Part shown: positions 14,557-47,744 of the stretch, piece after piece
Layout: the number at the start of each line of letters is the position of its first letter
Position numbering within the stretch: position 1 is the stretch's first letter
DNA from: Trypanosoma brucei
Taxonomy: Eukaryota
NCBI GenBank assembly: GCA_000002445.1
Contig: CH464491.1
Span: forward strand, 1,920,001 to 1,984,000
Length of the DNA: 64,000 nt
Direction of reading: 5' to 3'
The notes under the pieces: generated by a model
Seen by the model: the letters and a program-made list of their open reading frames with translations, nothing else
What the model was told of the DNA's origin: nothing
Database searches by the model: none
Position numbers and translations under genes: made by a program

Positions 14557-15505
14557 AACGCTTTGAGAAGATCAATTACACTTCACGAGGGGCAATGATG
14601 TATTTATCCTAAGCTCCAACAGTCCCTGGTGTAGTAAAAACGATGCAAAGTGGGTAAAGTGCAAAGAATCCAGATGAATACAAATACTTACCGGCTAACG
14701 TCTAACGGAAGACACTTACACAAAATACAGAGGGTGTGGAGACAGGTGCAAGTGAGAAGGGAGGCAAAATTTTCTTCACTACACCAAAGGTTAAGTAACG
14801 GTTAGAAAAATGTGAGCACCCCCGAAATATTAGAGGCGGAAAAAAAGGTATGAACAGGGCGCCGAGAGCCGCCTTGTACCTTCGTGAGATGCAAATCGCC
14901 CAACACTTAGAGTGCCCTTCCATTCCCCGCTACTGGAGGTCCTTTCCCAACAACTAATGCACGTTAATGTCATGTTTGTAAACAAGTGAACACGCGTATT
15001 CACAAATCTGTTAGTATATCTGAACATGCACGACCCCCCTCCCACGGGCGTTGCAAAGGTTCTACGAGGGTGAAGGTGAGGCAAAACAGACGAGCAAAGC
15101 GAGGACAAAGTGGAGTGGCAAAAGCACCTCTTGCAAGTTACCAGTGGCGGTGAACTCCACCAACCAGACAACTGCGATAAAGAGGCCGTGGGGAAAGGAA
15201 TAGTACAGGTCGCTAAAGGAAGCCACTGGACAACCAAAAGCATACCTGCAGCGGTGCAATCAAAATGAAAGAAAAATTTTGAGGCCACACAACCTGGGGA
15301 GAAGGAAATGCCCCGCAGTGGGTCACACAGTACCGGCAGCAGTAGTTGCGCGGAAAAAAAGGACAGAGCTGCCACGTGCCACACTATTCGGTAAACGGCA
15401 ACAGGGAACGCGTCCCCACCTCCATGCTGGCAATTGCTTGGTGCTTGCACACACATGTGTGTATATATTTGAACAAGATAATAATCGGAGAACAAAGCCG
15501 GAATG

Positions 15506-17134
15506 TCAATTCCACAAGACCAACCGCTTATCGTTACTTATGGTTGCCAGCACCGACGTTTCCCCCCTCTGTGCCCATGCAACACTTTTCACATGCTCTT
15601 GGTGAGCAGCCTCCAACTCAGCATCCATCACACGGCGTTCGTCCAAGTCAACGATTAACAGAGACCCACGTGAAGTACCCACTGCACAGAACCTCCCGCT
15701 GGGGCTCAGAGCAATCCTAGCGAGATGTGTGGAGGTACTTATATCCTCGCGCTCCACGCGGAACAACGCTTCGTCCATCCGACGTGTGTCTCTCACAGAA
15801 ATGGCGCCTCCTCGGCCAAGTGAGACACACAAGTTGTTTCTGACGACGCGCACGCACGTCGCTCCACCAGGATGGACGTTTTTGATTTCATCAGGGTTCC
15901 CACTTCGTCCACGGGAGTCCCATACACAGATGCTGCCATTGTAGTGTGCTGAAAGCAGATGAGAGTCGGCCACACACAAATCGTTGCAGCAGCTCGGGTT
16001 CAGCAAAGTTTTCTGTATGGTGGCTGACTGCAAGTCCCACAATCTAATTGAACGATCAGAGCTGGCGGTGTAGGCGTTTCTCTGGTCTGCTGAAAGGTAA
16101 GCGGCTGTAACCTTCTCCCTGTGACCAGTTAGTTCCGCTTTCCTCTGAGTCTTTGTATCCCAGATACGGACTACGCCGTCTGTACAACCAACTATCAGGC
16201 GGTCCCCAACACTGTCAATGCACAAAGGCACACCATCACTTGGGTGACACTGCAACGCGGCACCGCTACCACTGTCCCAGTACCTAATCATTCGATCCGC
16301 ACCACCAGTTACGATCCGCTCCCCGCCATTCGTTGCACACACTGCATGGATGAGCCGGTCACCGTGGGGATGTTCGGTCGTAAACATCACGCTGGAAGGC
16401 AATTTTGCAGCCTCCTGCACCGAAAATTCCTGGCGACATGTGTTGACGGGGTCCTTTTTGTGGGAAGAACGTGATACATCCACTTCCACCTCACCACGAC
16501 CTACACCAGAGCTGCCAACACAGCCCTTCTTCCGCATCGTGTTTAATTCATCATCGTACCCAAGTATTTTTTCCTGCATGTGCGCCATGGTTTCCTTCGC
16601 CGTTATCAACTCACGTACGCAGCGGTCCCGCTCGGCCAGTGCGGCGTTGAGTTTTGGCCTGACGATTTTGTTCTCCTCTTCGAGAGCCTTGTAGTTATTC
16701 GCAAGTCTCAGAAGCACTTCCTCAAGTTCCGTCTCGCGGTTCTTCAACTTCTTCACCTCCTCTTTGAGATTCGCGTTTTCTTCCGTCAGCCGCTTCACCT
16801 CACACTCGTTTTTGTAATAGTCCTTTTCATTTTTCAAACTCTCCTGCAGCTTCTCCTGCAGCTGGGCAACATTTGCTTCCAGCTGTTCTTCCCGGCCCGC
16901 GCGGCTAATAACCCCAGCAGAAGCAAGCTCGAGAGCCCGTACTTGCTTGACGAGTTCTTTGTTCTTTTCGTCGAGCGCCGTATTGTCACTTCGCAGGGTT
17001 TGCAGCGACTGTTGGAGCTTTAGCAACCGATTTTGTGCGAGGCGATGTGAACTGAACACGTGCTCCACAGACTGAATCTCCGCAGCATTGCGGCTGGCAA
17101 CCTGGCGGTTAATAATGCCAATCCATGACATCAC
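15506..17134 (-). CDS. coiled-coil plus WD40-repeat protein (ATG16-like architecture), 542 aa
   Basis: N-terminal ~200 aa heptad coiled-coil (LKEEVKKLKNRETELEEVLLRLANNYKALEEENK). C-terminal half has repeated WD-type units ending in WD/WN dipeptides (MIRYWDSGSG, VVRIWDTKTQ, SIRLWDLQSA, ICVWDSRGRS, RLVLWN). Confidence 0.75.
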   Translation of the reverse strand: MMSWIGIINRQVASRNAAEIQSVEHVFSSHRLAQNRLLKLQQSLQTLRSDNTALDEKNKELVKQVRALELASAGVISRAGREEQLEANVAQLQEKLQESLKNEKDYYKNECEVKRLTEENANLKEEVKKLKNRETELEEVLLRLANNYKALEEENKIVRPKLNAALAERDRCVRELITAKETMAHMQEKILGYDDELNTMRKKGCVGSSGVGRGEVEVDVSRSSHKKDPVNTCRQEFSVQEAAKLPSSVMFTTEHPHGDRLIHAVCATNGGERIVTGGADRMIRYWDSGSGAALQCHPSDGVPLCIDSVGDRLIVGCTDGVVRIWDTKTQRKAELTGHREKVTAAYLSADQRNAYTASSDRSIRLWDLQSATIQKTLLNPSCCNDLCVADSHLLSAHYNGSICVWDSRGRSGNPDEIKNVHPGGATCVRVVRNNLCVSLGRGGAISVRDTRRMDEALFRVEREDISTSTHLARIALSPSGRFCAVGTSRGSLLIVDLDERRVMDAELEAAHQEHVKSVAWAQRGETSVLATISNDKRLVLWN

Positions 17135-36805: not shown

Positions 36806-37030
36806 TCATCGCCGTCTGCCTTTACTCACACGAGTGTCTGAACTACAGAGAATGGGTGAATCTCCTTCTATGAGCTGCTTTAGCGCTAGAAGCTCCTTCT
36901 CGTCCTCCACCATCTGTCGCAAAGTATCCTGCAGTCGATTCATCTCAACCTCCAGGAGTTCCATTTCATTCTCCAAGTGGTCCGCGAGCGCCCGCACGGC
37001 CGCACCGGTTTCTCTGGGTTCCACATGCAT
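36806..37030 (-). CDS. possible small coiled-coil protein (74 aa). Weak call.
   Basis: Only candidate ORF in a 1.45-kb gap between the PCD and PA-domain genes. Heptad-like sequence ENEMELLEVEMNRLQDTLRQMVEDEKELLALKQL. Could be chance. Confidence 0.2.
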   Translation of the reverse strand: MHVEPRETGAAVRALADHLENEMELLEVEMNRLQDTLRQMVEDEKELLALKQLIEGDSPILCSSDTRVSKGRRR

Positions 37031-37972
37031 CCCAAGTCAAACTGAAACAAGGAGATTCCAGGCAATGTCCAAACGCCGTTGATGTAATGATGTACGTGCT
37101 CCCTCTGTACGGTGTAGCAAGTGCAAATGAGCTTCCGCTACCTTTTTCGTTTTCTTTGTTTTTTCTTTTCGATTTTCCCGCACGCGCTGCAATGTTTACA
37201 GTTTTTTTCTTGTACTTTATTCAGTGGGGTAAAGAATCAACAGTGGAATAGAGTTATGAATAAAGGGGAGGTACGGCGAATCGTACACACAACGCAGAAA
37301 GCGACCCGTCCTTCTTACGGCAACAAGTGACGTGTAGCAGTGTGTGCACTTAGTTTGTGGTTTTTGGATCAGCAAGTTGGCACTCCAGAGATATTATCAT
37401 TAATATGGGTGATCATGTTACCCTTCCCCTCTCTTTCTTTCTTCTCTTTTCCAAGCAAAATTCTTGTCACTTACCAACTTGCTTCCTTCACACTAAAGCC
37501 TACGTTTACCGATAGGGGCTGCGTCCCACTTACAGACACCTTTCTACATAACCATGAGGCTGCATAGCACACACCTTTTCCGCTCCCTGCATCAGCGGTA
37601 CGCCCATTTCTCCAAATCCCAGCATCCACCGTCCTGTTTACTCCGAAACCCCTCGCCCATACGTGCGGCTCTCGCACTTTTCACCGCATGCAAAAGAACT
37701 GAAAGCTCGAAACGGCTCGGTCCACAACAGTGATGCAAGGTGCGATGCAACGCCTGAGAAATGTAAGCAATCAACGCGACGAGGACACCACTAAGAAAGA
37801 AATCTATCCAAATAAATAGCACGCGAAAAGAGGCCTAGTTGGCTCACGTGGGGTTCCTCCGTCGATTAATTACACATGTAGCGAATGAACCACCACCCAG
37901 TTCAAACATTTGCTGTCGATGAAGAAGGAACGCGCACGCAAGTACCCACACCACACGATGTTCCCCCCCCCG

Positions 37973-38488
37973 TCAAACGATATACCGAAGCACATCCAAC
38001 GGCGTACCAAGCGTAACCTCCACCAGGACATCGTTTTTCACAGCGTTTGTAATGGCATCGTAGTCCTTCGTTGTTATGCGCTCAACAGGAATATCCACCT
38101 CTGCTTCATCTGCAGAACCAACACCGTCGTTCGCCACAAGCAAACCAACGGCGCCCGCAGATTGGGCCCTCACGGCTTGTGTACCGTGTGAGCACTGACC
38201 ACCATGAGTCAGGAGTACCGCATCAACCCAGTGAGGATCCACTTTATCTCCGTTGCAAAGCGCACCCATTTCTACCAGAATAACTTTCCCATGATTATTC
38301 CTCCCCGTCAGAGGCGTGGTACCATAGTCAGGAACGGTGGACAACATGTTTCGCTTTGCGAGGTAGAGAGGTCGGTGGACTACGAGCGATGTGACTGGCA
38401 CCGCAGCACCGAGCAGAGCAACAACAATTGTGAAGACGACTCTCAACCACAGCGCCATCTTGTCCAGCCCCTCAGTAAAAATTCCCAA
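37973..38488 (-). CDS. PA (protease-associated)-domain-like protein with N-terminal signal/anchor (171 aa)
   Basis: N-terminal hydrophobic segment (MALWLRVVFTIVVALLGAAVPV). Central block GKVILVEMGALCNGDKVDPHWVDAVLLTHGGQCSHGTQAVRAQSAGAVGLLVAND resembles the PA-domain core (G-K-I-xL-x-RG-x-C-x-F...KxxxAQ-xAGA-x-GV-L-x). Confidence 0.5.
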   Translation of the reverse strand: MGIFTEGLDKMALWLRVVFTIVVALLGAAVPVTSLVVHRPLYLAKRNMLSTVPDYGTTPLTGRNNHGKVILVEMGALCNGDKVDPHWVDAVLLTHGGQCSHGTQAVRAQSAGAVGLLVANDGVGSADEAEVDIPVERITTKDYDAITNAVKNDVLVEVTLGTPLDVLRYIV

Positions 38489-39286
38489 TTCTTCAAACTT
38501 TGTGTATCGTATCTGTTATCCAAATCTCAACTTCTGCCCACTTTCAACATGCTACACACCCCATTGTACACATATGAAAAAGAGGGGAGCGCACCAAAGA
38601 GGAGTGAAAAAGTGACTGAATAAGCAGAAAAGGGCAAAACACGGTACACTCAGTCAAGGACTATGACCAACGGACAAATAACACACACAACATCCTCTTC
38701 ACCATTTCTGTTGCAATTCCCTAAATTTTCCGTTACTTCTCCCTGGAAGAGAAGCTCATACCCACGTACTAAAAGCAAAAAAAAAAATAATAAGAATGGA
38801 CGACAACTCACACGAAATACCTGCCACAAGTCGAAACTGACCCATCTCGAAAAAAAAAGGCAGGTGATGTTGAAAGATAAGCCACAACGCCACCCCGAAT
38901 ACAACCTCGTGCCATTACAAACATTTACTACAAATATCAAACGATAAGAGCCCTCCGGCGAAACATAATAATGAAAAAGAGAATGAACAGCGACAAAATG
39001 GTCGAGTAACAACACCAACTAAAAAAAAGCTAATCACTATCCCCACAATGACCAGTAGGAAAATTAAATGTGGGAAAACGAATGAGCCAGAAGCGACACA
39101 TTTGATAGTTTAAAAACGAAACTGAAGAAAAAAAAATACAACAAACGGAACCAGTACAGCAAACAAAAGATAAAAAAAAAATAGCACCACTCAAAAATAA
39201 TAGTAATAATAATATTGTTTAACGGTCGAAAGCACTTTATTAGCAACCATAAAGAAAAACACTTTTCTTAATGGTGCCTCAACCCC

Positions 39287-40546
39287 TCACAGTTCTCCCC
39301 TCTTGTTCACCTTGAGCAAGTTATGCCACATGTTGTGAGACTCATCAATCACCTTCATTGCGTATTCCTTGTCCTTGAATTCACCATCGAAAGCAAAATG
39401 GCTCGCTTCACCACCCTGACAAATCTTGTACACACGGAACCACTCACGGATGGCATCAAGACATCCAGGAAGGAACTTCGGTACGTCATGGATGTCTTTC
39501 ATGAAACGACATATAGGATCGTTGTGGGATATGCAAACAACTTTCCAATCCATCTTGCCCTCGTCAATCATTCCAAGCACACCTAGCACTTTTACTGCAC
39601 TCACCTGACCGACTTTGAATTGCGTCATCCCGATCTCAACAGCATCTACGGGGTCATTGTCACCAGTCACCCCAGCCTCGAATAACACCTCTGTGCTCTC
39701 CCATGTCTGTGGAAACGCACCATAGTTCCACATCATATCACCATGCTTGTAGAACCGAGGTACGCCATTCTTGATATCCTGCTTTATGGGATTAAATGAC
39801 TCTCCAGTCGCGATCTCAAACTTTGCGCGCGTCCACTTAGGGATCTCACAGATGAAATTGTAGCGATTCATTGGTGTCGCCTCGGGCTTTGTTCGCACAA
39901 GATCACGTACATACAGCGGGATGTCATGCCACGGCGATACCTGCCGCTCCCTACCGGTTTCCAAATCCCTGAAGAAGTACAGTACGCGGTAGCTGGGTGT
40001 GTACATTTCACCTTTCTCGTGCACAACCAACTGCTGCTGGTGATACGGCATGGAGAAATCGGCAGACACCATCGAGAAACATTTCGTCCTGGAATGTACA
40101 GGATGGGAACACCACCACGCCCAAAACTTCTCAAATGTCACGTGACCATCGATAGCATTGATTTCAGCTTTCATGGCCTTCACATCCCCATCGCTCATGT
40201 TACGGCCCAAGTACCTGCATACCTCTTCCACTTTGTCAGGCGTGAGGTAGCCAAGATGCGTCACATCGAATGCTGAGAATAATCGACTCATGATCTTTTT
40301 GATCATTGGTTGAGTGAAATCATCCTTATCGTAGGCGGCAAGATCCAGTTCGCTCACCTTCCGGTCAACCGCCTCCTGAATAGGCTCTGCGACGTCGGCC
40401 TCAGAACCCCTGCCGGTACTTATGTTGGTACCAAGTGATGCCGAGAAAGGCAGCCCCGCCACTTCGGCAGAAGCCAAATCTTGGGGAGACGTTCGATCAC
40501 TGCGCGAATCCACACCGTGTGTGTTGTTCATATCTACAGTTGGCAC
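39287..40546 (-). CDS. VSP1: soluble inorganic pyrophosphatase with N-terminal EF-hand domain (vacuolar/acidocalcisomal VSP1 type), copy A
   Basis: 419 aa. N-terminal EF-hand-like region (DKDDFTQPMIKKIMSRLFSAFDVTHLGYLTPDKVEEV; NMSDGDVKAMKAEINAIDGHVTFEKF). C-terminal family I PPase core (NFICEIPKWTRAKFEIATGE, KQDIKNGVPRFY, GDNDPVDAVEIG, VKVLGVLGMIDEG). 8 aa differences to copy B, clustered near both ends. Confidence 0.9.
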   Translation of the reverse strand: MPTVDMNNTHGVDSRSDRTSPQDLASAEVAGLPFSASLGTNISTGRGSEADVAEPIQEAVDRKVSELDLAAYDKDDFTQPMIKKIMSRLFSAFDVTHLGYLTPDKVEEVCRYLGRNMSDGDVKAMKAEINAIDGHVTFEKFWAWWCSHPVHSRTKCFSMVSADFSMPYHQQQLVVHEKGEMYTPSYRVLYFFRDLETGRERQVSPWHDIPLYVRDLVRTKPEATPMNRYNFICEIPKWTRAKFEIATGESFNPIKQDIKNGVPRFYKHGDMMWNYGAFPQTWESTEVLFEAGVTGDNDPVDAVEIGMTQFKVGQVSAVKVLGVLGMIDEGKMDWKVVCISHNDPICRFMKDIHDVPKFLPGCLDAIREWFRVYKICQGGEASHFAFDGEFKDKEYAMKVIDESHNMWHNLLKVNKRGEL

Positions 40547-40547
40547 T

Positions 40548-40570
40548 TTAAAAGGCGGAAGAGGGAAAGC
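40548..40570 (-). promoter_or_regulatory. polypyrimidine tract plus AG (candidate trans-splice acceptor) immediately upstream of pyrophosphatase copy A
   Basis: Sense strand reads tgctttccctcttccgcctttt aaAG tgccaactgtagat ATG. The identical element sits at 45382-45404 for copy B. Confidence 0.35.
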
Positions 40571-41898
40571 AATCGATTAAAACACAAAGTACATAGAAAC
40601 AACGACATATTCCGGCGTGATAGTTGTATCGCATACCAACTTCTTCCACTCCAAAATACTCGCAGCTTAGACACTCAAATGCTTTGCTTAGCGATGCTTA
40701 ACGCTGCCTGCATGCGCGCCAGAGTTCTTCTTCTGCTGTCGACCTCACTGGCTAGGCACACCCGAGTGGTAATATCGGTTGTTGTAACAAATGGAGTGGA
40801 AATTTCTTTAACCGTTACCAGTTAGTTGTCCCCTTCCTCACCATTACGCACCAAAGTCAGCTAACTATACCGTGTGGAGCAAATGAACTGACAAATAAAT
40901 GGAAGGTAAGCACTGATATAGAACAGTGAACCGTACTATCATTATAGGATGGCGTTCACCCACCGCGGTTCCACGGCGGCACCAACCTCTCTTCAGCCAT
41001 AACAAAATTCAAACTCACGAAGGTAATAACGTAGCTAGCTAAACATCTATGTTGTGCCAAGCCATTCACTGGCAGCTGAGGTGCTTCCCAGTAACGCGTG
41101 AGCCTCGTTGGTTTTCTTGGCTCAGCACCCTTTCGCGTAAGAGGTCTTGCAACCCAAATTGTCACCTTCAACTCCGAATACAGGAACATACCAGCGTGTG
41201 GTGCAAACCCACCATCTCAAGAGAAGAAAGGTGACTTCCCGAGTAATCTGGAGAGCAGACACCCTGAGAGAGATTATGCCACTTGACAGCTGCATCAGAA
41301 TAGCCACATGGCGCCAGCACACTCATGGGAGATTTGTGGTTATAATTGATATGCAAGACTGCCATCCCGGAGGAAACCGTTCGACCAGTGTCTGCATCTG
41401 CCGCAACCCACCATGTCCCGCAAACCGTTCACTGCATGCCACACTCCTCCACACAGCGTGGCGTTCTAACGCATGATACAGGGTTGATTTCGGACGGACA
41501 AGCGTACAAAAAAGAGATACGTTGAACGATGAAGATGGACCGCAGCTCCAGTGATGTACTGTCAGTGTCAGTGTCAGTTCTGTTGGCTGACGGTAACGGG
41601 TCAGTACAGCACTGTAATGTTGGCTTCCCTCCATCTGATCTTGTGGGTCCTCATCAGGTATTTGAAAGAGTCGAGCTTGTCGTGCTCATTAAAGGTCGTC
41701 ATGGGTAGAAAGAAGTGATGGACGCAGCACACTAAGCAAAACGCCAACGAGCTGGAGAGGCCATCAACACGCTCTCTCGGTCTTCCTACGTACACACTAA
41801 ATAACACAGGACAGCCAGTAGAAAAGCAACGGGCACTTAACCGTGAGTCTTTGGAGTTAACGCCTGGTAGTCGGTTAACCTCCATTACTAAGCACCCG

Positions 41899-43581
41899 TC
41901 AATATGCACATTTAGCACCTGAAACCTCACGCAGCGCATCTACGGACGAAAAATCGCCCCCCAAAAGCAGCTCCTCCACCTGCTCCATTCTCCCAGGAAG
42001 AAAAGGTACTTCCACTGCCTCACACACTTGCTGCACTGTACGCCCTGACTGTGGTGGGTACAACAGAACGACATGGCCCTCCTTCCCCATCCGCCCGGTG
42101 CGTCCCGCACAGTGAACAAATACAGAAGCTGGTGGGCATTCACCAAAGAGGATAACGTGTGTAACTTCATTTATGTGTATCCCACGACTAAGACTGTGGC
42201 TACTCACACCAACCAGTAGTAACCCTGTGTTCAACTTTTCGATAGAGCTGTTGTCCTTCACATAAACGTCCCCTTTACTTCTGCAAATGCGTTTTGGTTT
42301 TCCCTTTTCCGGGTCGAGTAACGTCTCTAATGGTGCTGCGATCTCCCGTTTGCCATTCCACCGTAACCACTTTTGTACCTCTGGGCTAGTGCTCTTCAGA
42401 GTATTTAATTGGTTAGTGACACTCCCCACCTCTTCCTGGGTTGTAAAAAGAAGTACACGCGGATTCGCCTCCTGTTTACATATTAACCGTAATATGAGTT
42501 CAAGAGAACGAGGGAGCGGATATGAGCGAGACTCCGAATAAAAGTAAAAGCTGATTGTTTGAGGAATAGTGTGCTCTACGAAGCTGGTAGTAAGCCTAAC
42601 TGCTTTGTCATTTCGCATCCACATATTAAGAGCCTGCGCCGTACGACCATCTATAGTCGCACTGGCTGCAACAATCTGAGCGGGAACCTCTTCACGACGG
42701 CTACGAAACAAGCGATCAACCAAGTTAATCCCACTGATGTGTTGCCGACCAAATCGGATGTTTCCAAATAAAACAATGTCGGCTTCATCCAAAATAACGC
42801 AGTCCACCTTTCGCCGCAGTTTCTCCCCAAGCAAGGTTGGACTGAAACGTAGCACATCGGCAACTCGCTGCGGGGTTCCCACCAACACATGAGGTTGAAT
42901 GTTATGTAGCTTGGCCAACTGCACTTCAAGCGTTATACTCTCGATAGCAACTTGAACAACCTGTTGAGTGGAGCCACAAAAATGGCGCAACCACTTGTCA
43001 TATTGAAGAGCCAATTCCTGAGTTGGGACAATAATGACAGTGTGAAGACGATAATTGATATTTTCACGAATTATTCGATTGGCACAGGCAAGTGCGATAC
43101 CAAAACTCTTTCCCGTCCCGGTTTCCGCGTGAGCGATGACATGTTTACCCTTCAGTAAGAGAGGAATGAGAGCTCCTTGTAACTCTGTGAGACGCCCGAT
43201 CCCCAGCTTCTTCAGCGCCACAACGAGTGAAATACATAATCCGGCCCCACGCGGAGCCGTTTGCGAAAAGAACAAGGGATGCGCCTCGTTGTTATTAGCT
43301 ATGTTCGCCGTCGTTGGACTTAACATTTGCGCAGAACCAAGTCGAAGTTGCACTGTCCTATGCCTCTGGGAGGCACCTGAATCCCGCGTCGCATCACGCG
43401 CGTAGAAAAACTTCTGGGATGGTGGAAGGTTAGCCGCATGCGCCTCACCACCCTGTCTCATATAGTCATCGAGAAGTGAACCAGCCGAACCGCCATACGC
43501 CGCCCGGGAACCCTTCAAATACTTCAGATATCGCACCCCAAAGGTTTTCATTAACGTTAGGCGGGTAAGCGAGGACGACAC
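41899..43581 (-). CDS. ATP-dependent DEAD-box RNA helicase (560 aa)
   Basis: Motif I AHAETGTGKS, motif II VILDEADIV (DEAD), motif III ASAT and motif VI HCAGRTGRMG. The N-terminal ~100 aa are basic and hydroxylated, a possible organellar targeting sequence. Confidence 0.85.
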   Translation of the reverse strand: MSSSLTRLTLMKTFGVRYLKYLKGSRAAYGGSAGSLLDDYMRQGGEAHAANLPPSQKFFYARDATRDSGASQRHRTVQLRLGSAQMLSPTTANIANNNEAHPLFFSQTAPRGAGLCISLVVALKKLGIGRLTELQGALIPLLLKGKHVIAHAETGTGKSFGIALACANRIIRENINYRLHTVIIVPTQELALQYDKWLRHFCGSTQQVVQVAIESITLEVQLAKLHNIQPHVLVGTPQRVADVLRFSPTLLGEKLRRKVDCVILDEADIVLFGNIRFGRQHISGINLVDRLFRSRREEVPAQIVAASATIDGRTAQALNMWMRNDKAVRLTTSFVEHTIPQTISFYFYSESRSYPLPRSLELILRLICKQEANPRVLLFTTQEEVGSVTNQLNTLKSTSPEVQKWLRWNGKREIAAPLETLLDPEKGKPKRICRSKGDVYVKDNSSIEKLNTGLLLVGVSSHSLSRGIHINEVTHVILFGECPPASVFVHCAGRTGRMGKEGHVVLLYPPQSGRTVQQVCEAVEVPFLPGRMEQVEELLLGGDFSSVDALREVSGAKCAY

Positions 43582-44112
43582 CTAAATGCATATAGCAAAA
43601 AAAAATACTAAAATCAAAGCAGACACTGAATATAAGGTAAGCTGTGATGGGGGGGGGGAGTCCAAGACTCCTTAAAAGTTACCGCATCCAACAGCATACG
43701 GTATTCAACACAAGCTAATTAATTGAAATGCTAAGCTCGAATTCAGCATGGAAATAAGTTAATCAAACAATATAACCTCAATAAATTTATGTATGTACAT
43801 GTATACCAAACAGCAAACCTCATAAAGAAAGTTTCCCTGTCAGCTGAACGTGTACAACAACTCGCAAAAAGGGAAACTACACACTGTCAACGGTGTCATC
43901 ACCCATCGCCGGAAAAAAAAAATTACACCATTAGTAGGGAAAATAATCGAAAATGGGAGTGTGGGAGGGGAAGCCGGGGCAAAACGAAGACACTAGTAGA
44001 AAAAAAACACATACCCCAACTACAACACAAATTATAACCAACAACAGCATGAGTTGAAGTGATACCGACAGCCCAACCAAGCATCCGTAAATATATCTAT
44101 TAAACAACTGTG

Positions 44113-45589
44113 TCAACCCCTCACAGTTCTCCCCTCTTGTTCACCTTGAGCAAGTTATGCCACATGTTGTGAGACTCATCAATCACCTTCATTGCGTATT
44201 CCTTGTCCTTGAATTCACCATCGAAAGCAAAATGGCTCGCTTCACCACCCTGACAAATCTTGTACACACGGAACCACTCACGGATGGCATCAAGACATCC
44301 AGGAAGGAACTTCGGTACGTCATGGATGTCTCTCAAGAAGTGACATATAGGATCGCTGTGGGATATGCAAACAACTTTCCAATCCATTTCGCCCTCGTCA
44401 ATCATTCCAAGCACACCTAGCACTTTTACTGCACTCACCTGACCGACTTTGAATTGCGTCATCCCGATCTCAACAGCATCTACGGGGTCATTGTCACCAG
44501 TCACACCAGCCTCGAATAACACCTCTGTGCTCTCCCATGTCTGTGGAAACGCACCATAGTTCCACATCATATCACCATGCTTGTAGAACCGAGGTACGCC
44601 ATTCTTGATATCCTGCTTTATGGGATTAAATGACTCTCCAGTCGCGATCTCAAACTTTGCGCGCGTCCACTTAGGGATCTCACAGATGAAATTGTAGCGA
44701 TTCATTGGTGTCGCCTCGGGCTTTGTTCGCACAAGATCACGTACATACAGCGGGATGTCATGCCACGGCGATACCTGCCGCTCCCTACCGGTTTCCAAAT
44801 CCCTGAAGAAGTACAGTACGCGGTAGCTGGGTGTGTACATTTCACCTTTCTCGTGCACAACCAACTGCTGCTGGTGATACGGCATGGAGAAATCGGCAGA
44901 CACCATCGAGAAACATTTCGTCCTGGAATGTACAGGATGGGAACACCACCACGCCCAAAACTTCTCAAATGTCACGTGACCATCGATAGCATTGATTTCA
45001 GCTTTCATGGCCTTCACATCCCCATCGCTCATGTTACGGCCCAAGTACCTGCATACCTCTTCCACTTTGTCAGGCGTGAGGTAGCCAAGATGCGTCACAT
45101 CGAATGCTGAGAATAATCGACTCATGATCTTTTTGATCATTGGTTGAGTGAAATCATCCTTGTCGTAGGCGGCAAGATCCAGTTCGCTCACCTTCCGGTC
45201 AACCGCCTCCTGAATAGGCTCTGCGACGTCGGCCTCAGAACCCCTGCCGGTACTTATGTTGGTACCATGCAATGCCGAGACAGGCAGCCCCGCCACTTCG
45301 GCAGAAGCCAAATCTTGGGGAGACGTTCGATCACTGCGCGAATCCACACCGTGTGTGTTGTTCATATCTACAGTTGGCACTTTAAAAGGCGGAAGAGGGA
45401 AAGCAATTGATTAAAACACAAAGTACATAGAAACAACGACATATTCCGGCGTGATAATTGTATCGCATACCAACTTCTTCCACTCCAAAATACTCGCAGC
45501 TTAGACACTCAAATGCTTTGCTTAGCGATGCTTAACGCTGCCTGCATGCGCGCCAGAGTTCTTCTTCTGCTGTCGACCTCACTGGCTAG
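44113..45589. repeat. segmental direct repeat copy B (1477 bp)
   Basis: Pairs with 39279-40755. The copies are near-identical: 8 aa-changing substitutions clustered near both ends of the CDS, and two mismatches were noted in the shared 5' flank (c/t near 40575/45409, g/a near 40630/45464). Confidence 0.9.
44121..45380 (-). CDS. VSP1: soluble inorganic pyrophosphatase with N-terminal EF-hand domain (VSP1 type), copy B
   Basis: 419 aa, identical to copy A except F33V, S36L, L37H near the N-terminus and K/E, N/S, R/H, M/L, K/R changes in residues ~385-395. Confidence 0.9.
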   Translation of the reverse strand: MPTVDMNNTHGVDSRSDRTSPQDLASAEVAGLPVSALHGTNISTGRGSEADVAEPIQEAVDRKVSELDLAAYDKDDFTQPMIKKIMSRLFSAFDVTHLGYLTPDKVEEVCRYLGRNMSDGDVKAMKAEINAIDGHVTFEKFWAWWCSHPVHSRTKCFSMVSADFSMPYHQQQLVVHEKGEMYTPSYRVLYFFRDLETGRERQVSPWHDIPLYVRDLVRTKPEATPMNRYNFICEIPKWTRAKFEIATGESFNPIKQDIKNGVPRFYKHGDMMWNYGAFPQTWESTEVLFEAGVTGDNDPVDAVEIGMTQFKVGQVSAVKVLGVLGMIDEGEMDWKVVCISHSDPICHFLRDIHDVPKFLPGCLDAIREWFRVYKICQGGEASHFAFDGEFKDKEYAMKVIDESHNMWHNLLKVNKRGEL

Positions 45590-45943
45590 ATACGCACGCA
45601 ATGCAACTCGAGCACACTGTAAGTTTTTTGCGCGAATTTCACTCTGCAGCAGTGCCACATGGCGGCCAAGTGCAATAACTTTCTGTTGAGTCGCAAAGGA
45701 AGCGGTGACAGCGCTATCCTCATCCACCGGCGTAGTTGTTACCTCGACAACTTGCACAAAGAGTTCTCTGAGCTCCCTTGTTCTCTCCAGAAGTTGTGAT
45801 ACGGTGGCCAACGCTCCCTGTTCCACGTGGTTTGCATCTTCACATCCATTTTTGTCCTTACCACTGTAGTTGTGATTCCGTGACATGAGTGCAACGTTCC
45901 GGAGCACCTCCGGGATGTGTTGCCACCGCAACTCTTCGGACAT
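45509..45943 (-). CDS. possible small helical protein (144 aa). Uncertain.
   Basis: ORF with coding-like composition (QLLERTRELRELFVQVVEV...). Its last ~27 codons lie inside the copy-B repeat flank, i.e. it spans the repeat/unique junction. An alternative overlapping 216-aa ORF in another frame was rejected. Confidence 0.3.
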   Translation of the reverse strand: MSEELRWQHIPEVLRNVALMSRNHNYSGKDKNGCEDANHVEQGALATVSQLLERTRELRELFVQVVEVTTTPVDEDSAVTASFATQQKVIALGRHVALLQSEIRAKNLQCARVALRAYLASEVDSRRRTLARMQAALSIAKQSI

Positions 45944-46854
45944 TGCTGTTGGTGCGTGCGCACAAGTTGCAGTACTGTTCTAAAACAAGGAGACATGAAC
46001 GAGAGGTAGAGGTTGAGGACACCATAGGGAAGGTGCGTGATCACAGTGCCGCTGAATTGCGCAATGCAAGAACCGATAATAATGAAAAAGATATGGTTTA
46101 ACGGCGTACACACCGCAACAGGCAGTTTCATCCTGGGTAAACAATCGATGGTGCTGCCATGTGCACACAGCAGAAATTTCCTCCCGGTATCAAGGCACAT
46201 GCACGAGCATCGTTTACACCAGAATCTATCGGATTTGACGTTCGACGACACATAAACGTGGAAAGAGTTTTTGTTACACTTTGAAGACAAATGAACAATT
46301 CTGCGCGCCCTGCCTCCGAAAAGGTGACAAGTTAAATACAGCGGCATCGGCACTTGCAAAGGCGCGAAGCTCAAAAAAAATTGAAACACTTATATCGGGA
46401 GGAAACCCCGAAACTAACGGGGCCCCATTTACTCCCCTTCCTCAGTTGTATAGCGGAAAACCAAACATAAAAAAGTTGGCTTGTGAGGATGAGCATCCCT
46501 ACCCCGTGTGTCTCCTCTTTACTAGAGGAACGCATTATGCTAGCTATGAAGTATATGTGTACCTTCCTTCTTTGCCTCAAGAATAGTGCACACCCCTGCA
46601 CGTCGTTAAGAAGAGAAAGATAATGTGCGGTGGTTTGAGTATAACAATTCAGGCCCCACGGGTATTTTACCACGAACAGTGAAAAGCGACTTACACACAC
46701 TAAGTATTATTCTTTTACCTTTACTCACGTGAAGGAGGCTCACTATCTTATCCCGCTAGAGTAGGTGGAATCCAGAGGGAGTCAAAGGGGCGCAGCGGAC
46801 ATCCCTTCGCCTCGCAACTACGACCAAATGACCACCAATACCTCACCCAGCTGA

Positions 46855-47466
46855 TCACCGAGCGCCGATGTGGGACGAACTTAAAACGCGGTTCATCCAC
46901 AGGCCGTCACCAAGGTGATGAATGTTTTCAATCCCCGGACCGTTATTAACTCTCTCTATTTCCTCTGATGACATCAGCATGCGACCAACGGCAATCGCAT
47001 GCTCCTTTTGTTCGACGTGGATGGCTACGATAGCTCCAGCAGCCAGTCCTGGTGTTATGTACCCGCCCTCCGATGTGAGACCAGGGCACATAACATTAGC
47101 CCCTGAAACAACATACTTGCAGCCACCAATATCTACCTGTTGTCGGGGCAAAATAAAAGGATACTTGTGCAACAACTTCAGATGGGGAATGTAGGGACTG
47201 TTATGATGCCTGAAGAATAGTACTTCTGGCTGCGAACTGACCAGTGTAACGCAGTGCACCTGGTCGTGGCAGCGTACCAACATGATATCCGCCTTCTTCG
47301 GCATGATATCCTCCCAGAAGTCTGCAAGCAGCGGGTACTGTTCAGTGAGTTCTCCGCGGATTTGAGACTGCTCTTTGTTGCTAATGTTGGCTATTTGTGC
47401 CACATTCTGCAATGTGAACTTCTTAAAGAGGTCGGCGGAAGACAAGTGGCGGTTCTCCTGTTGCAT
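46855..47466 (-). CDS. MCT-1/TMA20-family translation-associated protein with PUA domain
   Basis: LFKKF, IMPKKADIMLVRCHDQVHCVTLVSSQPEVLFFRHHNSPYIPHLKLLHKYPFILPRQQVDIGGCKYVVSGANVMCPGLTSEGG...IENIHHLGDGLW aligns nearly residue-for-residue with human MCTS1. Confidence 0.85.
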   Translation of the reverse strand: MQQENRHLSSADLFKKFTLQNVAQIANISNKEQSQIRGELTEQYPLLADFWEDIMPKKADIMLVRCHDQVHCVTLVSSQPEVLFFRHHNSPYIPHLKLLHKYPFILPRQQVDIGGCKYVVSGANVMCPGLTSEGGYITPGLAAGAIVAIHVEQKEHAIAVGRMLMSSEEIERVNNGPGIENIHHLGDGLWMNRVLSSSHIGAR

Positions 47467-47744
47467 ACCTCGTTCTCTTCTTTTCGGTGGCTGCGCGCTA
47501 AAGGTACTTACTAGGTATTCGGTGACGGGATGAAGGTGCGCTCAGAGTACAGTATGCAGCGGCAAAGGCAGGTACACAAGAACAGAACCGGCAGAAACAG
47601 GGGGGAAGTAGCGATGGCGTAATAGTGTTGACAGCAAACGTGAGTCCTTAGAGAATTAAAGCTCCCCCTCCCCCCGAGGGAGGGAATGCCGGGACTTTTG
47701 CGCTTATTTATCACACGCTCCGCCAGGGTAGTGTTAACAACAAT

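What the first reader, a model, noticed from the sequence alone, without database searches (positions are those of the whole stretch)
39287..45380. Mosaic divergence between the pyrophosphatase copies: substitutions cluster at both gene ends, with an identical core
The 8 amino-acid differences fall in two short clusters. One is at residues 33-37 (F/V, S/L, L/H). The other is at residues ~385-395 (K/E, N/S, R/H, M/L, K/R; nucleotides 39480-39560 vs 44314-44394). The intervening ~1 kb, containing the catalytic PPase core, is identical. This is the footprint expected from a gene-conversion tract homogenising the centre while the ends drift, or from selection on terminal regions, e.g. an EF-hand/targeting segment or a C-terminal tail.
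Basis: seen in the sequence. Interest (0 to 1): 0.5.

Follow-up and report, generated by a model that had tools for sequence, protein, structure and literature searches.

The report
Gene-converted pyrophosphatase twins with divergent islands
Two copies of the Trypanosoma brucei acidocalcisomal pyrophosphatase gene (VSP1) are kept about 99% identical by repeated copying between them, except for two short patches that stay different in every strain examined; this is a clean example of a known process in known genes.

Summary

**The genes.** The window is T. brucei TREU927 chromosome 11. Copy A (39287-40531, minus strand) is Tb11.02.4910 / Tb927.11.7060. Copy B (44121-45365, minus strand) is Tb11.02.4930 / Tb927.11.7080. 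They flank a DEAD-box helicase gene.

**The differences.** A 1478-bp repeat holds 15 differences.
- Eleven sit in two islands, of 14 nt (F/V, S/L, L/H) and 59 nt (K/E, N/S, R/H, M/L, K/R).
- Chance gives this clustering with P about 1e-4.
- The second island is at residues 326-345 of 414, inside the catalytic domain. It is not at 385-395 or in a C-terminal tail.
- Sequence is identical again beyond both islands, so "ends drift" does not fit.

**Gene conversion.** T. vivax has the same pyrophosphatase-helicase-pyrophosphatase order. Its two copies are 99.4% identical to each other but only about 71% identical to the T. brucei copies. That is concerted evolution by gene conversion.

**The islands.**
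- All 11 island sites are copy-specific and fixed in three brucei-clade genomes, while neighbouring sites were converted in a strain-specific way.
- The islands carry about 20-fold higher silent divergence than the rest of the gene, and an excess of amino-acid changes.
- Published work shows A is the procyclic-enriched isoform and B the bloodstream-enriched one, with unrelated 3' UTRs.
- The most likely reading is that selection holds the islands against conversion. This is not proven.

It is a new example of a known kind.

The parts
39287..40531 (-). VSP1 copy A coding sequence (Tb11.02.4910 / Tb927.11.7060; 414 aa from the ATG; the ORF opens at GTG 40546). Reported as the procyclic-enriched isoform.
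   Evidence: Exact match to XP_828778.1 / Q384W5. Pfam PF00719. PDB 5C5V carries this type. Gene-ID mapping. Expression.
44121..45365 (-). VSP1 copy B coding sequence (Tb11.02.4930 / Tb927.11.7080; 414 aa). Reported as the bloodstream-enriched isoform.
   Evidence: Exact match to XP_828780.1 / Q384W3. PDB 5CUY carries this type at both islands. Expression.
39279..40756 (-). Repeat unit at locus A (1478 bp). It runs from 8 nt after the stop codon to about 225 nt upstream of the ATG. The flanks are unrelated beyond both ends.
44113..45590 (-). Repeat unit at locus B (offset +4834). Its 5' end overlaps the last 26 codons of the upstream 144-aa gene.
40434..40447 (-). Island 1 in copy A: 4 differences in 14 nt (F29, S32, L33 in 414-aa numbering). 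The copy B equivalent is 45268-45281 (V, L, H).
   Evidence: Copy-specific and fixed in 3 genomes.
45268..45281 (-). Island 1 in copy B.
39498..39556 (-). Island 2 in copy A: 7 differences in 59 nt (K326, N337, R342, M344, K345). Copy A mostly keeps the ancestral residues.
44332..44390 (-). Island 2 in copy B (E326, S337, H342, L344, R345). These states are mostly derived, and fall at positions conserved in other trypanosomatids.
41899..43581 (-). Unique DEAD-box helicase gene lying between the two copies.
45509..45943 (-). 144-aa gene upstream of copy B. It is the orthologue of the ORF that sits directly upstream of the single-copy T. cruzi pyrophosphatase gene.
40678..40806 (-). Relic of the last 43 codons of the 144-aa gene, upstream of copy A. 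The last 26 codons are identical to the intact gene and the rest has decayed. The original duplication therefore reached further 5' than today's identity boundary.
38489..39278 (-). Copy A 3' UTR and intergenic region. It is unrelated to that of copy B.
43582..44112 (-). Copy B 3' UTR and intergenic region. It is unrelated to that of copy A.

Best explanation
**What it is.** An old segmental duplication of the VSP1 pyrophosphatase gene, made before the salivarian trypanosomes diverged, put one copy on each side of a DEAD-box helicase gene.

**How it works.** Recurrent non-allelic gene conversion has since kept the coding region and about 225 nt upstream of the ATG (1478 bp in all) nearly identical within each species. 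The 3' UTRs are unrelated from 8 nt after the stop codon, and published work shows reciprocal stage-specific expression (A procyclic-enriched, B bloodstream-enriched). Two short internal islands, of 14 nt and 59 nt, have escaped homogenisation for much longer than the rest of the gene. The likeliest reason is that selection keeps isoform-specific residues and removes haplotypes in which conversion erased them. Linked silent differences then hitch-hike with those residues.

**Shown:**
- concerted evolution;
- sharp tract boundaries;
- recent strain-specific conversions;
- island fixation in three genomes;
- elevated silent and replacement divergence inside the islands.

**Inferred:**
- that selection, rather than chance, protects the islands;
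- that the island residues change enzyme behaviour in a stage-relevant way.
For: 1. **Shared synteny with species-wise grouping.**
   - T. brucei and T. vivax both show PUA gene, 144-aa ORF, pyrophosphatase, helicase, pyrophosphatase, PA-domain gene. The T. congolense contig, which starts just upstream of the helicase, shows only helicase-pyrophosphatase-PA.
   - T. cruzi has a single copy.
   - The T. vivax copies are 99.4% identical over 1572 bp.
   - In the identity matrix and NJ tree, paralogues group by species.
2. **Sharp boundaries.** Identity falls from about 99% to background within a few nt at both ends.
3. **Ongoing conversion.**
   - Sites -135, -36 and -5 carry strain-specific states that both copies share: one state in TREU927, another in DAL972 and L002.
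   - The derived L406 (CTC) is in both TREU927 copies. DAL972 B and L002 B keep the ancestral CGC, so a third island (S398A, L406R) exists in T. b. gambiense but was erased in TREU927.
4. **Fixed islands.** All 11 island sites are copy-specific in TREU927, DAL972 and GCA_003543875.1. The 4 non-island differences are private to TREU927 copy A.
5. **Older islands.** Silent divergence (pS) is 0.20-0.24 in the islands and 0.011 elsewhere. Counted as silent differences per silent site, this is 3/14 against 2/245, Fisher P=0.0012.
6. **Excess of replacements.**
   - Fixed paralogue differences have N:S = 8:3, against 119:193 for copy A versus T. congolense (P=0.028).
   - In the pyrophosphatase domain the ratio is 5:2 against 39:126 (P=0.0125).
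7. **Changes on both lineages in island 2.** Copy B has about 6 and copy A has 2. This fits a long-unconverted island better than a single mutational burst. Copy B's H342 and R345 replace residues that are nearly invariant across the other trypanosomatid sequences aligned.
8. **Expression.** Reciprocal regulation is reported at the mRNA level (PMC2771046). It is also reported at the protein level from isoform-unique peptides: log2 procyclic/bloodstream is +2.0 for Tb11.02.4910 and -4.1 for Tb11.02.4930 (PMC3344917).
Against: - The counts are tiny: 8 replacement and 3 silent changes. pN/pS is 0.5-1.15, which is not significantly above 1 and equals what unselected mutation would give.
- Most replacements are conservative (K/R, M/L, N/S).
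- Only three independent brucei-clade assemblies were available, so fixation across the species is not established.
- Island 1 lies in a poorly conserved N-terminal stretch, where relaxed constraint alone could allow fast change.
- No biochemical difference between the isoforms was found in the papers I could read.
- A deposited clone (AAP74702) combines B-type island 1 with A-type island 2. If it is real and functional, the islands need not be co-selected.
Confidence: 0.5

Rival explanations
1. Neutral islands. Gene conversion is real, but the islands are simply places that short conversion tracts have missed. They then become self-protecting, because a dense patch of mismatches triggers mismatch-repair-dependent heteroduplex rejection and ends tracts. 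No selection on the residues is needed. Redundancy between the two copies relaxes constraint.
For: - Concerted evolution and strain-specific conversions are shown.
- pN/pS in the islands (0.5-1.15) is what unselected change would give.
- The replacements are mostly conservative.
- Islands come and go between strains. The island at residues 398/406 is present in DAL972 and absent in TREU927.
- From my own knowledge, not checked here: mismatch repair is reported to suppress recombination between diverged sequences in T. brucei.
Against: - The same codons are under strong purifying selection between species: pN/pS is 0.03-0.10 in the island 2 window.
- H342 and R345 replace nearly invariant residues.
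- Each isoform is the main one in a different life stage, so redundancy is limited.
- Both islands are fixed in all three genomes, while flanking sites were converted.
Confidence: 0.3
2. Clustered multi-nucleotide mutation. Each island arose in one or two error-prone repair or templated-patch events on a recently homogenised background, and was then fixed by drift or hitch-hiking.
For: - The spacing is very tight: 4 changes in 14 nt, and 4 changes within codons 342-345.
- Adjacent double changes occur within single codons (codons 37, 331 and 347 of the ORF).
- N:S of 8:3 matches unselected mutation.
Against: - Polarisation with T. congolense, T. vivax and T. cruzi puts changes on both copies within island 2. 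Codon 326 is CAG in the outgroups, AAG in A and GAA in B. Codon 342 is CGC in the outgroups, CGT in A and CAC in B. Separate events in both genes at the same place would be needed.
- No donor sequence for either patch exists in the 64-kb window.
- T. vivax also concentrates 3 of its differences in the same N-terminal region.
Confidence: 0.12
3. A simply recent duplication with random substitutions, or an assembly or sequencing artefact.
For: Overall identity is about 99%. Near-identical repeats are prone to mis-assembly, and the T. equiperdum OVI assembly is visibly collapsed here.
Against: - The arrangement is shared with T. vivax.
- The clustering has P about 1e-4.
- The same island states appear in three independent assemblies, in PDB entries 5C5V and 5CUY, and as isoform-unique peptides.
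Confidence: 0.03

Closest known systems
T. brucei phosphoglycerate kinase genes PGKB/PGKC (and the THT1/THT2 hexose transporter array)
   Same: Linked paralogues are partly homogenised by gene conversion. They keep isoform-specific segments and are stage-regulated (summarised in PMC1855330).
   Different: - The PGK isoforms differ by large features, such as a C-terminal glycosomal extension and charge, and sit head-to-tail.
- Here only 8 residues in two tiny islands differ.
- The copies are separated by an unrelated helicase gene, and the whole 3' UTR is different from 8 nt after the stop codon.
Concerted evolution of T. brucei tandem gene arrays (Jackson 2007, PMC1855330)
   Same: Paralogues are more alike within a species than orthologues are across species. 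Conversion tracts have detectable boundaries.
   Different: - That survey does not mention this gene pair (no hit for 'pyrophosphatase' or 'Tb11.02.49').
- It reported that copies separated by unrelated genes and carrying unique UTRs tend to retain orthology rather than converge.
- This pair converges despite both features.
Islands of divergence under conversion-selection balance in duplicated genes (for example primate opsin, gamma-globin and RH gene pairs; the Innan/Teshima models). Cited from my own knowledge, not checked here.
   Same: A homogenised background carries short, sharply bounded patches that hold the functional differences and show elevated silent divergence.
   Different: The functional importance of the island residues has not been demonstrated for VSP1.
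TbVSP1, the acidocalcisomal / vacuolar soluble pyrophosphatase (PDB 5C5V, 5CUY; Lemercier 2004 as cited in PMC2771046)
   Same: These are those genes. Copy A residues 73-414 are identical to 5C5V. Copy B differs from 5CUY at one residue (L406R).
   Different: No difference in kind. In the papers I could read, the two genes are described as almost identical and reciprocally regulated. None describes the island pattern.

Membership tests
Kinetoplastid acidocalcisomal soluble pyrophosphatase (VSP1; Family I PPase with an N-terminal EF-hand-like domain) | Family I inorganic pyrophosphatase domain | tested here: met
   PF00719, E=2.5e-42, 144.7 bits against a cut-off of 23.5, residues 232-407.
Kinetoplastid acidocalcisomal soluble pyrophosphatase (VSP1; Family I PPase with an N-terminal EF-hand-like domain) | Identity with the experimentally characterised TbVSP1 | tested here: met
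   Exact matches to XP_828778.1 and XP_828780.1. PDB 5C5V is identical to copy A over residues 73-414. 5CUY is B-type with one further difference.
Kinetoplastid acidocalcisomal soluble pyrophosphatase (VSP1; Family I PPase with an N-terminal EF-hand-like domain) | N-terminal EF-hand pair | tested here: inconclusive
   PF13499 scores 21 bits, below the 30-bit cut-off. There are weak calmodulin hits over residues 74-145.
Kinetoplastid acidocalcisomal soluble pyrophosphatase (VSP1; Family I PPase with an N-terminal EF-hand-like domain) | Conserved metal and phosphate ligands equivalent to yeast D147, D152 and K154 | tested here: met
   The alignment to yeast PPase shows D-E-G-x-x-D-W-K conserved in both copies. 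Only the position aligned with yeast E150 differs between them (K versus E).
Concerted evolution by non-allelic gene conversion | Paralogues closer within a species than orthologues between species, despite a shared (older) duplication | tested here: met
   Synteny. Identity matrix and tree. T. vivax pair 99.4% identical.
Concerted evolution by non-allelic gene conversion | Lineage-specific variants shared by both copies | tested here: met
   Sites -135, -36 and -5. The derived L406 is present in both TREU927 copies.
Concerted evolution by non-allelic gene conversion | Non-random (mosaic) distribution of differences, with sharp tract boundaries | tested here: met
   Permutation tests. Boundaries. 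A decayed relic lies beyond the 5' boundary.
Concerted evolution by non-allelic gene conversion | Direct observation of conversion events in pedigrees or cultures | not testable with these tools
   Needs experimental lines or population long-read data.
Selection-maintained divergence islands (conversion-selection balance) | Islands fixed and copy-specific across populations | tested here: met
   All 11 sites are copy-specific in 3 of 3 usable brucei-clade assemblies. The sample is small.
Selection-maintained divergence islands (conversion-selection balance) | Higher silent divergence inside the islands than outside | tested here: met
   pS 0.20-0.24 against 0.011. Fisher P=0.0012.
Selection-maintained divergence islands (conversion-selection balance) | Replacement excess relative to the orthologue background | tested here: inconclusive
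   N:S is 8:3 against 119:193 (P=0.028), and 5:2 against 39:126 (P=0.0125). However, pN/pS is not above 1, so relaxed constraint fits equally well.
Selection-maintained divergence islands (conversion-selection balance) | Island residues cause a functional difference between the isoforms | not tested
   Both isoform types have been crystallised, but coordinates could not be compared here. The AF2 model was unusable (pLDDT 41.9).
Stage-specific isoform pair regulated through distinct 3' UTRs | Unrelated 3' UTRs | tested here: met
   Identity ends 8 nt after the stop codon.
Stage-specific isoform pair regulated through distinct 3' UTRs | Reciprocal expression in the bloodstream and procyclic stages | not testable with these tools
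   Taken from the literature: PMC2771046 and PMC3344917.

The most novel reading that the evidence does not exclude
The two islands are adaptive. The bloodstream isoform (B) carries a derived patch, E326 in the metal-binding hairpin plus S337, H342, L344 and R345, that tunes the enzyme to the mammalian stage. The procyclic isoform (A) keeps the mostly ancestral patch. Selection continuously purges gene-conversion events that would erase the difference. VSP1 would then be a minimal, experimentally tractable case of conversion-selection balance in a drug-target enzyme whose two isoform types have both been crystallised.
Probability: 0.4. Interest if true: 0.5.

Novelty: new member of a known kind. 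Interest (0 to 1): 0.33.

Why it matters
- VSP1 is reported to be needed for T. brucei virulence in mice and has been pursued as a drug target. Most work treats the two genes as one protein.
- The isoforms differ only at 8 residues in two fixed patches, one of which touches the active-site hairpin. Each patch type belongs to a different life stage.
- Inhibitor and structural studies should therefore state which isoform they use. PDB 5C5V is A-type and 5CUY is B-type.
- For genome evolution, the pair shows concerted evolution persisting across an intervening unrelated gene and despite unrelated 3' UTRs. It also offers a simple system for testing whether selection can hold tiny islands against gene conversion.

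Tried and rejected
- **Third donor copy.** I searched the window for a donor for either patch and found only the two loci.
- **'Recombinant' haplotypes as direct evidence of exchange.** The T. equiperdum OVI proteins (FSL+ESHL..., and KNRMK+ARR) come from a collapsed assembly. It has an N gap inside island 2 and lacks the helicase, so I rejected them as evidence. The Lemercier clone AAP74702 (VLH+KNRMK) could be a PCR chimera and was left undecided.
- **AlphaFold2 model.** A model from a 13-sequence alignment, meant to place the island residues, gave mean pLDDT 41.9 and was unusable. No fold search was run.
- **Structural papers.** The two TbVSP1 structure papers (PMC4683271, PMC4874902, and their DOIs) are not held.
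- **T. congolense upstream copy.** The contig starts 629 nt before the helicase, so the B position cannot be seen. Two T. congolense protein records differ by one residue (V246L), and both carry Q, N, R, M, K at island 2.
- **UAUUUUUU-type motif counts in the 3' regions.** Copy A has 3 and copy B has 1. This is too weak to use.
- **Independent duplications in T. vivax and T. brucei.** Considered and rejected as unparsimonious, given the identical gene order.
Full report
**What is there**

The region holds two 419-codon ORFs on the minus strand: copy A at 39287-40546 and copy B at 44121-45380. They are exactly 4834 nt apart. A 560-aa DEAD-box helicase ORF (41899-43581) lies between them.

Both translate to a Family I inorganic pyrophosphatase (PF00719, E=2.5e-42). 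A weak EF-hand-like region lies N-terminal to the catalytic domain.

From the ATG at ORF codon 6, the 414-aa proteins are exact matches to T. brucei brucei TREU927 proteins:
- Copy A is XP_828778.1 (Q384W5), which corresponds to Tb11.02.4910 / Tb927.11.7060.
- Copy B is XP_828780.1 (Q384W3), which corresponds to Tb11.02.4930 / Tb927.11.7080.

The gene-ID mapping comes from PMC3022644. This protein is the acidocalcisomal, or vacuolar soluble, pyrophosphatase TbVSP1. PDB 5C5V has the copy A sequence. PDB 5CUY has the copy B island residues plus one further difference, L406R.

**Checking the observation**

An ungapped comparison shows a 1478-bp repeat, 39279-40756 in A and 44113-45590 in B. It starts 8 nt after the stop codon and ends about 225 nt upstream of the ATG. 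Both flanks drop to background identity within a few bases.

There are 15 nucleotide differences.

| Position | Differences | Effect |
|---|---|---|
| ORF nt 100-113 (14 nt) | 4 | F34V, S37L, L38H |
| ORF nt 991-1049 (59 nt) | 7 | K331E, N342S, R347H, M349L, K350R |
| ORF nt 219 and 876 | 2 | silent |
| 5' flank | 2 | non-coding |

The eight amino-acid differences and the nucleotide coordinates are therefore correct. The residue numbers 385-395 are not. In 414-aa numbering the second cluster is at 326-345.

The clustering is significant.
- Uniform null: 7 or more differences in 60 nt, P=8.5e-5; 4 or more in 15 nt, P=0.003; longest identical run of 656 nt, P=0.002.
- Null weighted by between-species variability: P=2e-4 and P=5e-3.

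The phrase "both gene ends" is misleading.
- After cluster 2 come 69 identical codons and 8 identical nt beyond the stop codon.
- Before cluster 1 come 99 identical ORF nt. Upstream of those lie about 210 nt with only two differences.
- The clusters are internal islands in a homogenised repeat, not drifting ends.

**Orthologue test: concerted evolution**

I fetched the loci that encode the orthologues.

| Species | Gene order |
|---|---|
| T. cruzi | PUA, helicase, LRR, 140-aa ORF, pyrophosphatase, PA (single copy) |
| T. theileri | same order as T. cruzi, with three tandem pyrophosphatase copies |
| T. brucei (TREU927, DAL972) | PUA, 144-aa ORF, pyrophosphatase, helicase, pyrophosphatase, PA |
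| T. vivax | same order as T. brucei (its 144-aa orthologue lies upstream of the first copy) |
| T. congolense (contig starts just upstream of the helicase) | helicase, pyrophosphatase, PA |

From established phylogeny (my own knowledge, not checked here), T. vivax is the earliest-branching salivarian trypanosome. The split arrangement therefore predates the salivarian radiation.

Even so, the T. vivax copies are 99.4% identical over 1572 bp. In the coding region the T. vivax pair is 99.7% identical and T. brucei A/B are 99.0% identical, while between-species identity is only 67-75%. An NJ tree groups paralogues by species. This is the classical signature of concerted evolution. It excludes a recent duplication with random substitutions.

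A relic of the last 43 codons of the 144-aa gene lies upstream of copy A, at 40678-40806. Its last 26 codons are identical to the intact gene and the rest has decayed. The original duplication therefore extended further 5'. Today's 5' identity boundary is a conversion boundary, not the edge of the duplication.

**Conversion is ongoing, but the islands are spared**

I aligned six brucei-clade copies: TREU927, T. b. gambiense DAL972 (L001), and GCA_003543875.1 (L002).
- All 11 island sites are copy-specific and fixed in all three genomes.
- The 4 non-island differences in the window are private to TREU927 copy A.
- Sites -135, -36 and -5 show one state in both TREU927 copies and another state in both copies of the other two genomes. 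This points to at least one conversion after these lineages split.
- At the 3' end, DAL972 B and L002 B carry A398 and R406. Codon 406 is CGC in these copies and in T. congolense, T. vivax, T. theileri and T. cruzi, so R406 is ancestral.
- Both TREU927 copies, and DAL972 A, carry the derived L406 (CTC).
- T. b. gambiense therefore has a third island that an A-to-B conversion erased in TREU927.

It also shows that islands can be lost, while islands 1 and 2 persist in every genome examined.

**Nature of the islands**

I polarised the changes with T. congolense, T. vivax and T. cruzi codons.

| Codon (414 numbering) | Outgroups | Copy A | Copy B |
|---|---|---|---|
| 326 | CAG (Q) | AAG (K) | GAA (E) |
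| 337 | AAC (N); GGC (G) in T. vivax | AAC (N) | AGC (S) |
| 342 | CGC (R) | CGT (R) | CAC (H) |
| 344 | ATG (T. congolense) or CTG (T. vivax, T. cruzi) | ATG (M) | TTG (L) |
| 345 | AAG (K) | AAA (K) | AGA (R) |

- In island 2, copy B carries about six derived changes and copy A carries two.
- R342 and K345 are nearly invariant across the other trypanosomatid sequences aligned.
- Within the island, both copies share many derived silent states relative to T. congolense. The island therefore began to diverge after the brucei-congolense split.
- In island 1, copy A looks derived (F29, S32), while B's L32 and H33 resemble the outgroups.
- Nei-Gojobori counts give pS of 0.24 and 0.20 in the islands against 0.011 elsewhere. 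As silent differences per silent site this is 3/14 against 2/245, Fisher P=0.0012.
- pN/pS is 1.15 in island 1 and 0.49 in island 2. For orthologue comparisons over the island 2 codons it is 0.03-0.10.
- Fixed paralogue differences have N:S = 8:3, against 119:193 for copy A versus T. congolense (P=0.028). In the pyrophosphatase domain the ratio is 5:2 against 39:126 (P=0.0125).
- The islands are therefore older than their surroundings and enriched in replacements. The numbers are small, and pN/pS does not exceed 1.
- Aligned to yeast pyrophosphatase, residue 326 corresponds to E150. That position lies between the ligands D147 and D152/K154 in the D-E-G-x-x-D-W-K hairpin. Residues 337-345 correspond to yeast 161-169, the loop before the following helix.
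- T. vivax also concentrates three of its few differences at codons 21, 29 and 37. This parallels island 1.

**Functional context from the literature**

- Jensen et al. [quoted passage not shown] The genes are reciprocally regulated, possibly through their divergent 3' UTRs.
- Urbaniak et al. 2012 (PMC3344917) separated the proteins by isoform-unique peptides. Log2 procyclic/bloodstream is +2.0 for Tb11.02.4910 (copy A) and -4.1 for Tb11.02.4930 (copy B).
- The gene pair, its near-identity and its reciprocal regulation are therefore known.
- I found no description of the island pattern or of concerted evolution at this locus. Jackson's 2007 survey of T. brucei tandem arrays does not mention it.
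- That survey noted that copies separated by unrelated genes and carrying unique UTRs usually retain orthology. This pair behaves differently.

**Interpretation**

The best-supported model is:
1. An ancient duplication.
2. Recurrent non-allelic gene conversion over the coding region and 5' UTR.
3. Unrelated 3' UTRs that give stage-specific expression.
4. Two short islands held apart, most probably by selection for isoform-specific residues (confidence about 0.5).

The main rival is that the islands are neutral leftovers stabilised by mismatch-dependent rejection of heteroduplex (about 0.3). Clustered multi-nucleotide mutation is less likely, because changes lie on both lineages within island 2 (about 0.12). 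Artefact and recent duplication are excluded.

**What led nowhere**

- There is no third donor for either patch in the window.
- The T. equiperdum OVI locus is a collapsed assembly, with an N gap inside island 2 and no helicase. Its hybrid proteins are unreliable.
- The AAP74702 clone is a B/A hybrid of uncertain authenticity.
- The AF2 model was too poor to use.
- The two TbVSP1 structure papers were not available.

**Verdict**

Gene conversion is confirmed. The "centre converted, ends drifting" geometry and the proposed targets of selection are not. This is a new, tidy example of a known phenomenon in already characterised genes. Its practical consequence is for how TbVSP1 isoforms are treated in structural and inhibitor work.

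Noticed in passing
window 40678-40806 (minus strand): A pseudogene relic of the 3' end (last 43 codons) of the 144-aa gene at 45509-45943 sits upstream of pyrophosphatase copy A. The last 26 codons are identical to the intact gene and the rest has decayed.
   Followed up: yes
L005-L009 compared with window 37000-47500: T. cruzi and T. theileri have an LRR-protein gene between the helicase and the 140/147-aa ORF. No trace of it was found in the T. brucei, T. vivax or T. congolense loci. The salivarian rearrangement that moved the pyrophosphatase copies to either side of the helicase coincided with loss or relocation of that gene.
   Followed up: partly
L009 5293-11248 (T. theileri): T. theileri carries three head-to-tail pyrophosphatase copies that are 93.8-97.5% identical. 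This is an independent amplification at the ancestral position.
   Followed up: partly
L010 9035-9044 (T. equiperdum OVI, GCA_001457755.2): The assembly is collapsed. Locus B is joined to locus A through a 10-N gap inside island 2, and the helicase gene is missing. This produces two truncated annotated pyrophosphatase proteins (345 aa and 94 aa).
   Followed up: yes
L002 about 14606-16083 (GCA_003543875.1) and L004 5537-6780 (T. vivax): One copy in each assembly carries a 1-nt deletion that breaks the reading frame: coding nt 1192 in L002 copy A, and nt 244 in the upstream T. vivax copy. I could not decide whether these are real pseudogenisation or sequencing errors.
   Followed up: no
window 40532-40546 and 45366-45380: The mechanical ORF starts at a GTG five codons upstream of the ATG. 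Deposited proteins and PDB 5CUY start at the ATG (414 aa).
   Followed up: yes
protein P0126 (AAP74702.1 / Q7Z029): The originally cloned TbVSP1 sequence combines B-type island 1 (V, L, H) with A-type island 2 (K, N, R, M, K), plus R411M. It is either a natural recombinant allele from another strain or a PCR chimera of the two genes.
   Followed up: partly
window 39926-40276 and 44760-45110 (plus strand): An identical 116-aa antisense ORF lies inside both pyrophosphatase copies. It is probably a by-product of the repeat. I found no evidence that it is a gene.
   Followed up: no
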